64,000 bases of DNA. Origin: Dendrobates tinctorius. Lineage: Eukaryota. The stretch spans positions 186,001 through 250,000 of the forward strand of contig NW_027361991.1 in the NCBI RefSeq assembly GCF_039654945.1, read 5' to 3'. A program made the position numbers. This document shows positions 1 through 9,000 of the stretch, one piece after another. Every line of letters begins with the position of its first letter. Position 1 is the first letter of the stretch.

Positions 1-3000
1 GGTCAACATAGGAGGAATCTTACATACTCTGAAAAACAGGCATTGGATAATCTTTCAAAGAAATACTGCTATTACGATAAAAGCTGCAGATAAAGGTGGT
101 GTGGTTGTTGTTATGGATACAGACAAATACAAGATGGAGATTCTTGGCCAACTTTCTGATACTGCAGTGTATGTTAAATTGATGAGTGACCCCACCCCCC
201 GTTTTTTGAGCGAATTACGGCTTTTAGTGGATGAGTCCTTGCTTAATGGACTCATTGATCAGAAGCTGTCTGAATATTTGGTAGTGGATGCTCCCCAGAC
301 ACCAATATTGTATACGCTACCGAAAATACATGAGTTTGGAGAACCCACCTGGGCGTCCCATAGTGTCTGGGAGGGGGTCACTATGTAATAAGGTTTCGAT
401 TTTTCTTGATAAAGTATTGCGACGTTTTGCTACCTCAGCACGGTCTTATATTGTGGACACAAATGATTTTCTGCAAAAAATCAGTGACGTTAAGGTTACT
501 TCTCACATGATACTTGCATCCTTTGATGTGGTTTCTCTATATACGTCTATTGAGCATGATAGGGGTTTGGAGGCCGTCGATGTGGTGCTGACAGGCTCGG
601 ACATGGCGTCAGAGTGTGCACAGCTGGTCCTAGCACTGTTAGGTTTCATCCTCAGGAGAAATTATTTTCTCTTTGGGGATGATTATTACCTACAGTTGCG
701 CGGTACTGCCATGGGGTCCAATGTGGCCCCAACTTATGCAAACATCTATATGGCGGTATTTGAGGACCGGTATGTGTACAATTCTACCCACTGGTGCCAT
801 GTCCGGGCCTGGTGGCGCTACATTGACGATATTTTCTGTATCTGGGATGGTAGTCTGGAAGATCTTCTTGATTTTCAAAATGAATTGAATAATGTATTCT
901 CTGAGTTGAAGTTTACACTGACCTACTCTTATGATCAGGTCCAATTTTTGGATACGTTGGTTTATAAGAAAGATGAGTCTCTATATACCGATCTTTTTAT
1001 AAAAGAGACAGATAGGAATAGTCTTTTGGTGTTTGATAGTAATCACCCAAGACGAATGGTGGAGTCACTACCATGGAGTCAAATGCTACGTGTACGGAGG
1101 ATTGTTAAAGAGGATGATAAGTTGGACCTAAGATTGGATCAGATGTGTACAAAATTTATTAACAGGGGTTACCCGATGGATCGAGTTAATTCTTATAAAG
1201 TTAAGGCTCAAAATATATCGGTAGAGGATTCTAACCGTAAGCAAATCAAAGGGCCTAAGAGACGAGTTCCTTTTGTCTCAACATATTGTCCAGTTAGTGG
1301 CAGGATTGGAGGTATCTTGAACAAACATTGGAGCCTCTTACAAAAGGGTCTGCCCCAGATATCAGAATTTGTGGATAGGCCATTACTTTCATATAGACGT
1401 GGACATAATCTTAAAGATAGATTGGTAAGGTCAGATATTGGTTCATCAAAAGTCAACGTACAAAGGACAATATGTCCTCCTAAGATGGGCAATTTTCCAT
1501 GCTTGGGATGTGCCTGTTGTGGCAATATGTTAAAAGGTGACAGTTTCAATCACCCTCGAACTGGAAAAAAGTTTTCTATTAAGGAGAGGTATACGTGTTC
1601 GTCAAGTTTTGTGATTTACTTGATTTTGTGCCCATGTGGGCTTATGTATATAGGAGAGACCACTATGGAGATTAGGGCTCGCATTAGTAAGCATAAGAGT
1701 ACGATTAGGACTTATCTAGTGGAGTTGCCGATTCCGAAGCATTTTATAGAATGCAGACATTCAGTGAATCAGTTACGATTTAGAGTGATAGATGGGGTTC
1801 CTGTATTAAGACGTGGGGGTGATAGGGTTAAGATGCTGAAAAAAAAGGAGTTGAGATGGATATCGATTCTTGATACGTTGCAACCAAGGGGTTTGAACTT
1901 GGATTACAATTTGCATACTTGTGTCACCTAATCCCTCACCTTGTGTCATTATTCTTTGTTATGGGTATATATTTACTTATGTGGCCTTTATGGTTTTTTA
2001 ATTAAATATTTTTTATTTTTTAGTGTCTATAGGTGATACATTTGAAAGAATGGAGGACACGGGGACTGAACAGTCCTGAAATTATGAAGAGGATGTTGTC
2101 CTTTTTGGATTTTGTCGTTATTTCTTGCCTGCCATTCCCCGTGCCCTCTTTTTTCTTCTTTTTCTTTTTTTCTTTTTCTTTTTGTTTTTTTTGTAAATAT
2201 GCTAGTTTTGCTCCTTATATAATGTACACATTTATGAATCTCATGAAGTATGGAATATTATTAAATTTACCATGGATATGGTTTTTTGATTCTAAATGTC
2301 TCTTATATGCTGTGGTTTTCTTGGGAGCATTTTTGGTCTATTTGTGTGGACTCATTAATTTAAATGTGGTTTTACACTTGCTCTTATTTATCAGCGCATG
2401 TGCGGGTTTACAAGGGAGTGTGGTGTGTGATCGCGCGCTCTGGGCCTCTGCGCGTGCGCGTTCCCCCCCGGTGGGCGGTTCGTGTGGCTGATTCCTCGCA
2501 TAGCACCGCGCATGCGCGGTGTTCGGTGATGGAGTCTTCACGTGACCGGACCTGGGCGGGGATGGGCGGCGCTCTCGCCGTGGCCTTGTAGCGCGCGTCA
2601 TTAGACTGCGCTCCTGTTGTGGCCTGGCTCTGGCTGATGCTGTCATATGGGGAGAGGGATCTCTGCCGATATAGGAATTTGTGAGTCCATTGGGGTTGGC
2701 GCCACTATTATGTGATTAGGGATTGGCGGTTTATATATGGATATGTGTTACTGCAAGTGATTGGTGTGCTATTTCTATGGATACCTTTGATGCATTACGA
2801 CTAGAGTTGAGCGATACCGTCCGATACTTCAAAGTATCGTATCGGATGGTATCGGCCGATCTTTAAAAAAAGTATCGGTATCGCCGATTCCGATACCGGA
2901 AGTCCCATTCAAGTCTGTGGGACTTCCGGTATCGGAATAAGAAAAACCCTTTCCTGCCCTTGTACAGCCTCTCTGGGGTCTGTACGGGCCTTTCGGGGGG

Positions 3001-6000: not shown

Positions 6001-9000
6001 ATCACTGTCATGGTAGCAGGCATCGCCCGATGGGACTTGTAGTCCCATCGGACGATGCTTGCACAGACCCCCGGACATCAGCACAGCCCCCCGGCAGGCC
6101 GGCACAGCCCCCCGGCAGGCCGGTACAGACCCCCACAGGGTGCACAGACCACCGGCAGGCCGGCACAGCCCCCCGGCAGGCCGGTACAGACCCCGGGCAG
6201 TCCACACAGCCCCCCGGCAGGCCGGCACAGCCCCCCGGCAGGCCGGCAGAGACCCCCGGAAGGCCCGAAATGACGGCGCATCATGATGCGCACACACCGC
6301 GCATCATGATGACGTCAGGCCGTCAATCAACTGAACTTCCGATTCCGATGCCGAATTCCGATATTGAAAAAATATCGGAAGTCGGTATCGGAATTCCGAT
6401 ACAGCAAGTATCGGCCGATACCCGATACTTGCGGTATCGGAATGCTCAACACTAATTACGACCATTGGTGGGCTGATTTGGGGTTTGATGTTTATATATG
6501 AAATGTTTTTGTAATATTTTCAATATGATTATGATCATTATTGTTAACGATTGGATAAGCTATGTTATTGAATATACATGTAACTGATGGATGTATTTAT
6601 ATGTATTTTATATATGGATTCTTTGTGATGGGTGTTACCTACATGGTGATTGGCTGTGCCACACTATAAAAGGCCACCATATGTACTGTTATGTTATACT
6701 TGAAAAAGGCCACAATATGGCCGAAACGTTGTATTTTGTACTGGCAGAATAAATTTTTGATACAATTTTTCACCCAGACCGGATGCTGTTCCTCTTCCTT
6801 ATTTTGGACTTGCTGCAATATGTCCGAGGATCCATCACCAGGCAGGACACACAGCTACATCGAGCAATTCCTGCTGAGGAATGTATGTTTGTCACCCTAA
6901 GGTACGTAATTTTGAAAAAAACACCTGTCATTAAAAAAAAAACACCTGTCATTAAAAAAAAACACCTGTCATTAACACCTGTCATCACCTGTCATTAAAA
7001 AAAACACCTGTCATTAATATTATTGTTCTAAAAGCCATTTAATTGTTTTTATCCCATTTTCTGTTCCGGAGATTCATGGCTACTGTAGAGACCTTATCAT
7101 CTCTACATTTTCAATACCGCATTGGAGTGTCCACGCTTTCTGGGGTTGTTGGAGACACCTGCCATGCTTTATGTGACATTCTGCATGCAGAATTCCTCCC
7201 CCAACCCACAACTGAACTCTGGCTGTAAAATGCTGCAAAATTTATGGACATTTGTAATTTGGATGGAAAACACATCGGATTAGGAAACCAGTTGGAAGTG
7301 GATCCAAGTATTTCAATTACAAAAAACACTTTTCTATTGTTCTCATGGCAATTTCAGATGCTGTCGATTTGGACATTGGCTCATTTGGACGAGGAAATGA
7401 CTCACAGACTTTCAAAAACTCTGACTTGGTCCAACGTTTGTATGGGAATAATTTCAATTTTCCACAGCCACGACCTCTTCCCAACACTGAAGGACCGCCA
7501 ATGCCGTTTGTTGTGGATGAGGCCTTTCAAACGTGTGCCAACCTCATAGAACCGTACTCAAGTCGGGACTTGGATCACACCAAATGGATTTACACCTACC
7601 GAGTGACAAGGGCACGAAGAACTGTGGAGTGTACCTTTGGATTGCTGGTATCTAAATGTCGCATTTTGGAAATAGCCATCAATGTAAAAATTGAGACAAT
7701 TGATGAGATTGTGAAAGCGTGTGTTGTTATGCACAATTACATCCTGGTGAAAGAGCGACCCAACTTAGAACTTGATGAACCTGTTCATACCACATTGCCA
7801 GATTATCAAGATCACCTTCTGAGAACTACGGTGGAAGTTGCCCAAATGAGGGATACACTTGCTTCCTACTTTGTTTCGGACACTGGACATGTGGCATGGC
7901 AAGATGAAATGGTTTAAGCTGCTAAAATGTACCTGTAATATTAACCTTAATATCTTAATAGCTGTCTACAAATATCTAAAGGGCTGTCACATTGTAGAAG
8001 GATCAACTTTATTCTCATTTGCACAAGGAAAGACTAGAAGCAATGGGATGAAGCTGAATGGGAGGAGACACAGATTAGATATTAGAAAAAACTTTTTGAC
8101 AGTTAGAGTGATCAATGAGTGGAACAGGCTGCCACGAGAAGTGGTGAGTTCTCCTTCAATGGAAGTCTTCAAACAGAGGCTGGACAGACATCTAACTGGG
8201 ATGATTTAGCGAATCCTGCTTTGAGCAGGGGGTTGGACCAGATGGCCCAGGAGGTCCCTTCCAACTCTACGATTCTATGATTCTATGAACCTCTTTCTGC
8301 CATCTGATGTACTATCCCGTCCATGGGACCTGGGCCCCTATAGTACGTCTAGCGCGATCATGTGCGCTCACGGGGGGAGTGCAGCTGATCGCGGCCGGGT
8401 GTCAGCTGACTATCACAGCTGACACCCGGCACTATGTGTCAGGGGCGGTCACGGACCGCCCCCGATACATTATTAACCCCTGGCACACTGCGATCAAACA
8501 CGATCGCAGTGTACCGGGGGTTTAGGGAAGCATCGGAAGTGATATGTTAGCGCTATATGAAAATAAAGATTATTATTATTATTAATTCCAGCCAATTCTG
8601 CGTTGAAAAAGTCAAATGGTGCTCCTTCCCTTCCAAGCTCTGCCATGCGCCCAAACAGTGGTTTACCCCCACATATGGGGTATCAGCCTACTCAGGATCC
8701 AATTTCTCCTCTTACCCTTAGGAAAATAAAAAAATTGGGGGCAAAAATCATTTTTGTGGAAAAAAATATTTTCACGCCCGGACGTTATAAACTTCTGTGA
8801 AGCACTTGGGGGTTCAAAGTGCTCACCACACATCTAGATAAGTTCCGTGGGGGGGGGGTCTAGTTTCCAAAATGGGGTCACTTGTGGGGAGTTTCAACAG
8901 TTTCTCTCCAAACGCGACATGACACCCGCAAACCATTCCATCAAAGTCTGCATTCCAAAACGTCACTACTTCCTTTACGAGCCCCAATGTGTGCCCATAC

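What the first reader, a model, noticed from the sequence alone, without database searches (positions are those of the whole stretch)
2802..6454. 3.65-kb foldback hAT element: a giant palindrome with a 1-nt spacer and mirrored satellites
Seen: axis at 4639 (GTGGGAA-A-TTCCCAC). The unique arms ~4305-4638 and 4640-4975 are near-perfect complements; I saw only two mismatches. Outward follow mirrored ~0.9-kb microsatellites, mirrored unique blocks with poly-A/T (~3250-3400 and 5921-6065) and mirrored 21-bp GC minisatellites, all bounded by TIRs and a perfect 8-bp TSD. The satellites differ between arms while the unique parts stay nearly identical, so this is not a simple read-foldback artefact. 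Inference: a young mobile unit that disperses satellites and can extrude a cruciform. If it lies in the mucin intron, it would form a >1.5-kb dsRNA hairpin in pre-mRNA (ADAR/Dicer substrate).
Basis: partly seen in the sequence, partly recalled or inferred. Interest (0 to 1): 0.65.

Follow-up and report, generated by a model that had tools for sequence, protein, structure and literature searches.

The report
hAT-type transposon with giant internal palindrome
A 3.65-kb non-coding jumping-gene copy of the hAT type whose whole interior is a mirror-image duplication meeting at a single base, which is an unusual but explicable product of hairpin DNA chemistry rather than a sequencing artefact.

Summary
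Window 2802-6454 is bounded by a perfect 8-bp direct repeat (ATTACGAC) and 11-bp terminal inverted repeats that match at 10 of 11 positions.

Its interior, 2985-6267, is a palindrome centred on base 4639:
- The central 461 nt per arm differ at 3 positions.
- The two mismatches in the unique core are both CpG/TpG differences, one in each arm.
- Block B, the poly-A/T tracts, the ~0.9-kb microsatellites and the 21-bp GC minisatellites are mirrored, but the satellites have diverged to 68-82% identity.

One correction: the outer 183/187 bp are not mirrored. They are two dissimilar ends packed with a TATCGG/CCGATA hexamer, 14 copies in 370 bp against 0.36 per kb outside the element.

The 8-bp duplication, YARNG tips, nTnnnnAn-type target and asymmetric subterminal repeats fit a non-autonomous hAT element. 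No transposase lies in the element or in window 1-22000, and no second copy is in the window.

I read the palindrome as one hairpin-mediated inverted duplication of the cargo. The 1-nt centre is what a hAT transposase hairpin predicts, but foldback priming is not excluded.

A read-foldback artefact is unlikely. Family spread, transcription and intron position could not be tested. Interest is moderate.

The parts
2794..2801 (.). Left copy of the 8-bp target site duplication (ATTACGAC)
   Evidence: Identical to 6455-6462. It fits nTnnnnAn (pattern from a passage of PMC10368747).
2802..2812 (+). 5' terminal inverted repeat, TAGAGTTGAGC (YARNG tip)
   Evidence: One of the only 2 matches to the pattern in 64 kb. 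10 of 11 positions match the other end.
2802..2984 (+). 5' subterminal region, not mirrored; 6 copies of the hexamer TATCGG/CCGATA
   Evidence: Hexamer positions: 2821, 2840, 2850, 2873, 2890, 2930.
2985..3235 (.). Left GC-rich 21-bp minisatellite and outer limit of the palindrome (the TRF array runs 2975-3256, 13.7 copies)
   Evidence: 68% identity to the mirrored array.
3236..3373 (.). Left unique block B, carrying two short local hairpins
   Evidence: 135/138 identical to the reverse complement of 5940-6077. The only interior difference is at 3254/6059.
3374..3401 (.). Left poly-A tract (28 nt, against 18 nt of poly-T in the other arm)
3402..4299 (.). Left TACA/TGCA-type microsatellite (the TRF array runs 3402-4333, period 11/51)
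   Evidence: The outer part is 82% identical to its mirror; the inner ~120 nt are in perfect register.
4300..4638 (.). Left unique core arm (339 nt, 12 CpG)
   Evidence: 337/339 complementary to 4640-4978.
4639..4639 (.). Axis: a single unpaired A between the arms
4640..4978 (.). Right unique core arm (339 nt, 12 CpG)
   Evidence: On the + strand it carries an ATG followed by 11 codons and GTGAGT.
4979..5921 (.). Right microsatellite (the TRF array runs 4945-5922)
5922..5939 (.). Right poly-T tract
5940..6077 (.). Right unique block B (mirror of 3236-3373)
6079..6267 (.). Right GC-rich 21-bp minisatellite (TRF 6081-6265, 9.0 copies) and outer limit of the palindrome
6268..6454 (+). 3' subterminal region, not mirrored; 8 copies of TATCGG/CCGATA and a local palindrome containing TGACGTCA
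   Evidence: Hexamer positions: 6358, 6373, 6386, 6396, 6409, 6415, 6422, 6435.
6444..6454 (-). 3' terminal inverted repeat, TAGTGTTGAGC on the - strand
6455..6462 (.). Right copy of the 8-bp target site duplication

Best explanation
This is a real, non-autonomous cut-and-paste transposon of the hAT type.

Structure (shown). Two short, dissimilar ends of 183 and 187 bp each carry an 11-bp terminal inverted repeat with a YARNG tip and a cluster of TATCGG/CCGATA subterminal repeats. By analogy with Hermes and Tol2, these are where a transposase supplied in trans would bind. Insertion by staggered 8-bp cuts left the ATTACGAC duplication. The element encodes no protein. Its cargo (2985-6267) is one sequence present twice in mirror image, meeting at a single base.

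Origin of the mirror (inferred). I take it to be the product of one hairpin-mediated inverted duplication. My preferred route is this. A hAT-type cleavage inside an ancestral copy, at a nested element or a cryptic end, left the interior DNA capped by a covalent hairpin. hAT transposons can excise with a 1-nt 5' overhang, so such a hairpin has one unpaired nucleotide at its tip. The hairpin was then either opened about 1.6 kb from the tip and filled in (a kilobase-scale 'P-nucleotide' tract) or copied around. The extended end was finally joined to the remaining 3' end at 6267/6268.

Later change (partly shown, partly inferred). Each arm lost one CpG to TpG, and the satellites drifted by slippage.

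Consequences (inferred). The locus should be prone to hairpin or cruciform formation and breakage. If transcribed on either strand it would give a long double-stranded RNA.
For: Bounded insertion:
- The 8/8 duplication sits immediately outside 10/11 terminal repeats.
- The flanks are unrelated to each other and unique in the window.

hAT criteria:
[quoted passage not shown] Here the tips are TAGAG and TAGTG.
- Hermes prefers the target nTnnnnAn. It has dissimilar ends with asymmetric short subterminal repeats and needs about 220 bp per end; Tol2 needs 200 and 150 bp (PMC10368747, passages).
- Here ATTACGAC fits the target pattern. The hexamer occurs 14 times in the 370 bp of the ends, 0 times in the 3283-bp palindrome and 22 times in the other 60,347 bp.

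Palindrome.

Real mutations rather than errors: both core mismatches are CG/TG differences. The left arm has lost the CpG at offset 8 and the right arm the one at offset 163, leaving 12 CpG in each.

Hairpin route:
- hAT transposases form hairpins on the flanking DNA (PMC5499845, passages).
- A published model has a Ds-associated hairpin giving a new inverted repeat that travels with the element (PMC1978519, passages).
- The 8-mer read across the axis (ATTCCCAC, equivalently GTGGGAAT) also fits nTnnnnAn. That has a 1-in-16 chance, so the support is weak.
Against: - No hAT transposase domain was found. 74 stop-to-stop frames from window 1-22000 were scanned against Pfam: 10 of at least 120 aa, plus 63 of the 73 frames of at least 75 aa listed. 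The other 10 of those 73 are the frames. Frames lying wholly inside the element were left out.
- No homology test against known hAT ends was possible.
- No second copy exists in the window, so mobility of the palindromic form is not shown. The duplication could have arisen in place after insertion.
- The 1-nt centre can equally be read as a 6-bp inverted repeat with a 3-nt loop (GTGGGA-AAT-TCCCAC). That is within the range reported at foldback-priming junctions: 5-9 bp repeats with 3-12 bp spacers (PMC7999016, passage).
- No remnant of a nested element or cryptic end survives at the axis.
- The outer junction lies in a labile minisatellite, so its original form is unreadable.
- No reads were available to confirm the assembly.
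Confidence: 0.6

Rival explanations
1. Same element, different origin of the mirror. The proposed route is foldback priming or template switching during repair or replication. A 3' end exposed by a break, for example during gap repair after an excision, snapped back on a pre-existing short inverted repeat (GTGGGA-AAT-TCCCAC). It copied its own strand for about 1.6 kb and was then joined to the 3' end.
For: Foldback priming at breaks near 3-15 bp inverted repeats is an established route to inverted duplications (PMC10622511, abstract and passages; PMC7999016, passages). The centre here can be written as a 6-bp stem with a 3-nt loop. The outer junction 6267/6268 shows no long homology, as expected for end joining.
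Against: It needs the 15-nt quasi-palindrome to have existed beforehand, which cannot be checked. The exactly odd, minimal centre is a specific prediction of the hAT hairpin, whereas foldback priming merely allows it. The systems described in those papers give chromosome-scale duplications, not ones confined within a transposon.
Confidence: 0.3
2. The palindrome is an independent foldback-type or inverted-repeat element that inserted into a small hAT element, as the Angel element did in Tol2.
For: Tol2 carries 302/303-bp internal inverted repeats attributed to insertion of the Angel element (bioRxiv 10.64898/2026.01.12.699174, passages).
Against: No direct repeat flanks 2985-6267: the left side ends ...GGTCTGTA and the right side begins AAATGACG.... 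On the left the minisatellite runs on beyond the mirrored part (TRF start 2975). No other copy of any part is in the window.
Confidence: 0.08
3. An assembly or read artefact: a foldback chimeric long read incorporated into the contig.
For: Perfect-centre palindromes are the signature of foldback chimeric reads (my recollection, from no call). No reads could be examined.
Against: An artefact would mirror everything out to the read end. Here the mirror stops inside two different transposon ends that are framed by a matching 8-bp duplication and by unrelated flanks. The arms differ by 13.7 against 9.0 minisatellite copies and by many microsatellite indels. Both core substitutions are CpG/TpG, one in each arm, which is a germline mutation pattern.
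Confidence: 0.04
4. A cut-and-paste element of another superfamily that also makes roughly 8-bp duplications. From memory these include P, some Mutator-like elements, Merlin and Zisupton.
For: No transposase or end homology ties it to hAT. [quoted passage not shown]
Against: Both tips are YARNG, the target fits nTnnnnAn, and the terminal repeats are short with asymmetric subterminal repeats. Galileo's and the MULE foldbacks' long inverted repeats reach the tips; here they do not.
Confidence: 0.08

Closest known systems
Non-autonomous hAT elements (Ds-like deletion derivatives; Hermes and Tol2 as the studied autonomous models)
   Same: An 8-bp duplication, YARNG tips, short imperfect terminal repeats, two dissimilar ends of about 150-220 bp with short subterminal repeats, and no coding capacity (PMC3014272 and PMC10368747 passages).
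   Different: The whole interior is a 3.28-kb palindrome with a 1-nt centre. No sequence relation to a named family could be tested.
Tol2 internal inverted repeats (medaka hAT)
   Same: A hAT element with long internal inverted repeats able to form a hairpin (bioRxiv 10.64898/2026.01.12.699174, passages). That paper calls the feature unique to Tol2 within the superfamily.
   Different: Tol2's repeats are about 300 bp, sit in an autonomous element, and are attributed to a nested Angel insertion with TTAA. Here the arms are about 1.64 kb, fill the element, meet at one base, and have no flanking duplication of their own.
'Ac killer' composite insertions and Mu killer in maize
   Same: Inverted duplications of transposon sequence, generated by aberrant hAT (Ac) transposition or found in MuDR. 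They are transcribed into double-stranded RNA that yields siRNAs (bioRxiv 10.1101/2020.01.07.897926, abstract and passages; PMC3440606, abstract in the listing).
   Different: Those loci duplicate transposon ends and transposase sequence, and they arise with chromosome-scale rearrangements in plants. Here the ends are excluded from the mirror, no transposase sequence is recognisable, and neither transcription nor small RNAs were examined.
Foldback-type elements (Drosophila FB, Galileo of the P superfamily, Muta1-type MULEs)
   Same: Long inverted arms containing tandem repeats and the ability to fold back (PMC5499845 passages; PMC3688188 and PMC4168063, abstracts in the listing).
   Different: In those elements the long inverted repeats are the termini, and their subrepeats are transposase binding sites. 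Here the termini are unique, the binding-site-like hexamer is absent from the arms (0 in 3283 bp), and the duplication is 8 bp.
Double Ds (recalled, not checked in a paper)
   Same: A hAT derivative with internal inverted symmetry, linked to chromosome breakage.
   Different: Double Ds has four ends, one Ds inside another. Here each end occurs once only.

Membership tests
hAT superfamily (non-autonomous member) | 8-bp target site duplication | tested here: met
   ATTACGAC at 2794-2801 and 6455-6462, 8 of 8. Criterion from a PMC3014272 passage.
hAT superfamily (non-autonomous member) | Terminal motif YARNG at both tips, within short terminal inverted repeats | tested here: met
   TAGAG and TAGTG. 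The 11-bp repeats match at 10 of 11 positions. Criterion from a PMC3014272 passage.
hAT superfamily (non-autonomous member) | Dissimilar subterminal regions with clustered short repeats (transposase BED-domain sites in Hermes) | tested here: met
   14 TATCGG/CCGATA hexamers in 370 bp of ends, against 22 in 60,347 bp outside and 0 in the palindrome. The ends align at only 58%. Binding itself was not tested.
hAT superfamily (non-autonomous member) | Target preference nTnnnnAn (Hermes; my recollection is that it applies to the Ac-type group) | tested here: met
   ATTACGAC has T at position 2 and A at position 7. This is a single site with a 1-in-16 chance, so the support is weak.
hAT superfamily (non-autonomous member) | Mobilised by a hAT transposase (BED finger, DDE core, hAT dimerisation domain) sharing these ends | not testable with these tools
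   No such domain appeared in the frames scanned from window 1-22000. Only RVT_1, DDE_Tnp_4, the Tc1-type HTH and SCAN were found. No eukaryotic genome or repeat library was available.
hAT superfamily (non-autonomous member) | Sequence similarity of the ends to a described hAT family | not testable with these tools
   A literal search of paper texts for the terminal 11- to 14-mers gave only unrelated hits among the 10 of 75 listed, and the two 14-mers had no occurrence in those 10.
Foldback elements in the strict sense (FB, Galileo, Muta1 type) | Long inverted repeats that reach the termini and are built of transposase-binding subrepeats | tested here: not met
   The mirror stops at 2985 and 6267. 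The outer 183/187 bp are dissimilar, and the subterminal hexamer is absent from the arms.
Nested inverted-repeat element (Angel-in-Tol2 type) | Its own target site duplication flanking the inverted-repeat unit | tested here: not met
   No direct repeat at 2984/2985 against 6267/6268. The boundary lies in a minisatellite, so an old duplication could have been erased.
Double Ds-type nested pair | Two copies of each transposon end | tested here: not met
   Each end matches only itself in the window, apart from short internal repeats.
Hairpin-RNA 'killer' locus (Mu killer, Ac killer) | The inverted duplication includes sequence of the autonomous element and is transcribed into siRNA-generating double-stranded RNA | not testable with these tools
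   No expression or small-RNA data were available, and the autonomous element is unknown. Rfam gave only sub-threshold matches of miRNA-precursor models at the axis: best 63.1 bits against a gathering score of 200.

The most novel reading that the evidence does not exclude
The element is a transposition-competent hAT vehicle whose cargo palindrome was made by the family's own hairpin-forming transposase: a kilobase-scale 'P-nucleotide' tract. It would then spread as a mobile long-hairpin locus. Each copy would be both a portable fragile site or cruciform and a source of double-stranded RNA against its own family, an animal counterpart of the maize 'Ac killer'. Each insertion would also seed paired, independently drifting satellites.
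Probability: 0.08. Interest if true: 0.65.

Novelty: new variant of a known kind. Interest (0 to 1): 0.35.

Why it matters
If the structure is real in the organism, it offers three things.

- It is a natural example of a near-perfect 461-bp-per-arm palindrome with a 1-nt centre persisting in an animal germline. Sequences of this kind are described as strong triggers of replication stalling and breakage (PMC7999016 passages).
- It may be a rare sequence-level trace of what happens when a transposase-made hairpin is not resolved normally.
- The two arms form an internally controlled clock. Identical starting sequences show how fast a 21-bp minisatellite and a TACA-type microsatellite diverge relative to point substitutions.

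For genome annotation it is an ordinary non-coding transposon copy.

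Tried and rejected
- Other copies. BLAST of the two ends, the minisatellite, block B and the core against the whole window gave only self and mirror matches. The flanks 1900-2801 and 6455-7300 are unique, so no paralogous empty site is available. The terminal-repeat pattern with 1 mismatch matches only the two ends, which is fewer than the 3.5 expected by chance, so the pattern alone is not significant.
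- RNA families and tRNAs. There were 35 Rfam matches at E up to 1, none near its gathering score. Those at the axis are generic hairpin matches to miRNA-precursor models. There are 0 tRNA genes in 1-22000.
- Transposase hunt. Pfam on 74 frames from 1-22000 found four domains and nothing of the hAT type:
  - RVT_1 at 285-1931, 28.2 bits, just under its 29.6 cut-off;
  - DDE_Tnp_4 at 7258-7917;
  - the Tc1-type HTH at 15726-16067(-);
  - SCAN at 17612-18415.
- Atlas look-alikes of the 285-1928 frame carry HTH_animal, RVT_1 and, in part, GIY-YIG. I read this from memory as a Penelope-like retroelement, a lead only.
- Double Ds and nested-insertion readings were rejected (see Membership tests).
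- Literal sequence search of papers was uninformative.
- Searches for a described hAT element with a full-length internal palindrome found Tol2's internal repeats and the maize Ac killers, but nothing with this architecture. That covers only the open-access library searched.

Not attempted, and why:
- The only DNA collection open (genome contigs) holds bacteria and archaea, so it was not used.
- Paper supplements were not consulted.

Full report
**What is there**

The window has no N. Positions 2802-6454 (3653 bp) are framed by the identical 8-mer ATTACGAC at 2794-2801 and 6455-6462. The element begins TAGAGTTGAGC and ends with the reverse complement of TAGTGTTGAGC, a 10 of 11 match. These are the only two matches to that pattern in the 64 kb. 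The pattern alone is not rarer than chance, with 3.5 matches expected, so the weight lies in its position directly inside the duplication.

Base 4639 is the axis. Without gaps, the arms are complementary at 458 of 461 positions, with mismatches at offsets 8, 163 and 417. Register is lost from offset 462.

A gapped alignment of the left half against the reverse complement of the right half gives the same order of parts in both arms:
- a 339-nt unique core, 337/339 matching;
- a TACA/TGCA-type microsatellite of about 0.9 kb, 82% identical in its outer part;
- a poly-A/T tract, 28 against 18 nt;
- a 138-nt unique block B, with one interior difference at 3254/6059;
- a 21-bp GC-rich minisatellite, 13.7 against 9.0 copies, 68% identical.

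The mirror ends at 2985 and 6267. The outer 183 and 187 bp are different sequences.

The palindrome is far beyond chance. The longest exact inverted repeat in 30 shuffles was 14 nt, against exact runs of 154 and 253 nt here. The central 923 nt fold into one hairpin of -576.6 kcal/mol, z = -137.

**What kind of element**

The two outer regions look like working transposon ends. The hexamer TATCGG/CCGATA occurs 6 times in 2802-2984 and 8 times in 6268-6454. It does not occur in the 3283-bp palindrome, and it occurs 22 times in the remaining 60,347 bp. That is about a hundred-fold enrichment.

The published criteria fit:
[quoted passage not shown] Both tips here, TAGAG and TAGTG, fit.
- Work on Hermes describes a preference for nTnnnnAn targets, two dissimilar ends, short asymmetric subterminal repeats bound by the BED domain, and a need for roughly 220 bp of each end. 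Tol2 needs 200 and 150 bp (PMC10368747, passages).
- ATTACGAC fits the target pattern, and end lengths of 183/187 bp are in that range.

The element has no coding capacity. All its long frames run through the satellites.

No hAT transposase domain appears in the 74 frames scanned from 1-22000. No second copy of any part is in the window. Membership of hAT therefore rests on four structural features. The defining one, a hAT transposase that moves it, could not be tested.

**Artefact or real**

A foldback chimeric read would mirror everything. Here the mirror stops inside two different ends, which are framed by a duplication and by flanks unrelated to each other.

The arms differ in the number and pattern of satellite units. 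Both substitutions in the unique core are CG against TG: the left arm has TG at 4631 and the right arm has the TG at 4802. Each arm now has 12 CpG. One CpG lost independently in each arm is what methyl-CpG decay after a true duplication would give. I could not look at reads, so a small doubt remains.

**How the mirror arose (inference)**

Three facts constrain it:
- the centre is a single base;
- the duplication is confined to the interior;
- its outer junction on the right (6267/6268) shows no homology to what follows the left arm.

[quoted passage not shown] A hairpin made with that one-base offset has exactly one unpaired base at its tip.

If such a hairpin formed inside an ancestral copy, at a nested element or a cryptic end, two routes are open. 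It could have been nicked far from its tip and filled in, or copied around. Either way the result is an inverted duplication with a 1-nt centre, which then only has to be joined to the remaining 3' end.

A model of this type, a hairpin next to a Ds end producing a new inverted repeat that travels with the element, has been published (PMC1978519, passages). The 8-mer across the axis also fits nTnnnnAn, but that has a 1-in-16 chance.

The main rival is foldback priming at a pre-existing short inverted repeat. It is well documented for break-induced inverted duplications (PMC10622511; PMC7999016). The centre can be read as a 6-bp stem with a 3-nt loop, so I cannot exclude it.

A nested foldback insertion, as Angel in Tol2, is less likely because no duplication flanks 2985-6267. 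A double-Ds arrangement is excluded because each end occurs once.

**Consequences (inference)**

Longer, more similar arms and shorter spacers make palindromes more prone to hairpin or cruciform formation, replication stalling and breakage (PMC7999016, passages). This one is at the extreme of that scale, so central deletions or polymorphism are to be expected.

If transcribed, it would give a long double-stranded RNA. In maize, inverted duplications of Ac made by aberrant transposition are transcribed and silence Ac through siRNAs (bioRxiv 10.1101/2020.01.07.897926, abstract and passages). Nothing here shows transcription. The Rfam matches at the axis are generic hairpin matches far below threshold.

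**Surroundings**

The neighbourhood is rich in transposons:
- an open 548-aa reverse-transcriptase frame at 285-1931, whose Atlas look-alikes carry HTH_animal, RVT_1 and partly GIY-YIG; I read this from memory as Penelope-like;
- a Harbinger-type DDE fragment at 7258-7917;
- a Tc1-type HTH at 15726-16067(-);
- a SCAN-domain frame at 17612-18415.

From 21921 to the end of the window runs one open frame of 14,026 codons on the + strand. It is Ser/Thr/Pro-rich and built of 564-bp units. A polypyrimidine tract and CAG precede it at 21963, so it is an internal exon of a mucin-like gene.

The element lies 15.5 kb upstream on the same contig. I built no spliced model and joined no exons. I do not take the contig for human, because of the open retroelement and transposase frames and this intact insertion.

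**Comparison and verdict**

The closest known things are:
- ordinary non-autonomous hAT elements (same ends, different interior);
- Tol2's 300-bp internal inverted repeats, called unique within hAT in the preprint read;
- the maize Ac and Mu 'killer' inverted duplications;
- foldback-type elements of the P and Mutator superfamilies, whose long repeats, unlike here, are the termini.

My four literature searches for this architecture found no hAT element whose entire cargo is a palindrome meeting at one base. They cover only the open library, and repeat databases could not be consulted.

I rate it a new variant of a known kind, of moderate interest. The claims about spread, satellites and RNA are untested.

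Noticed in passing
window 21921-63998 (+): One uninterrupted frame of 14,026 codons, Ser/Thr/Pro-rich, built of 564-bp (188-aa) units with 126-bp subrepeats, running off the window. A polypyrimidine tract and CAG acceptor precede it at 21963. It is a mucin-like giant exon with no Pfam match in its first 1000 aa.
   Followed up: partly
window 285-1931 (+): An open 548-aa frame with a reverse-transcriptase domain (RVT_1, 28.2 bits, just under the 29.6 cut-off). Its Atlas look-alikes carry HTH_animal, RVT_1 and partly GIY-YIG, which suggests a Penelope-like retroelement. The hAT insertion lies about 870 bp downstream of it.
   Followed up: partly
window 7258-7917 (+), 15726-16351 (-), 17612-18415 (+): Fragments of other mobile elements: a Harbinger-type DDE_Tnp_4 (63 bits), a Tc1-type transposase HTH (59.6 bits), and a frame with a SCAN domain (45 bits).
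   Followed up: no
window 4790-4842 (+), mirrored at 4436-4488 (-): The right arm reads ATG, 11 codons, then GTGAGT, like a short first coding exon with a splice donor. A second GTAAGT lies at about 4918. The arm-to-arm mismatch at 4476/4802 falls in this ATG, and the left arm has GTG instead. The piece is too short to test, so whether the core is a captured or transposon-derived 5' exon is unknown.
   Followed up: no
window 2899-2930, 3262-3285, 3326-3350 and their mirrors; 6268-6320: Several short local hairpins built on GGGACT...AGTCCC in the 5' end and in block B. One reads ACTACAAGTCCCA, which from memory resembles the ACTAYRNNNCCCR promoter motif. The 3' end holds a local palindrome containing TGACGTCA. 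No function was tested.
   Followed up: no
window 4178-4299 / 4979-5100 versus 3402-4177 / 5101-5921: Within the microsatellites, the ~120 nt next to the unique core are still in perfect register between the arms, while the rest has drifted to 82% identity with many indels. This looks like an edge-against-interior gradient of slippage.
   Followed up: partly
window 6915-7017 and 20400-20800: A 20-bp tandem repeat (5 copies) lies just right of the element. Further on there are repeated AAGATGGCGCC-like motifs in a region with poly-T/A tracts, probably further repeats.
   Followed up: no
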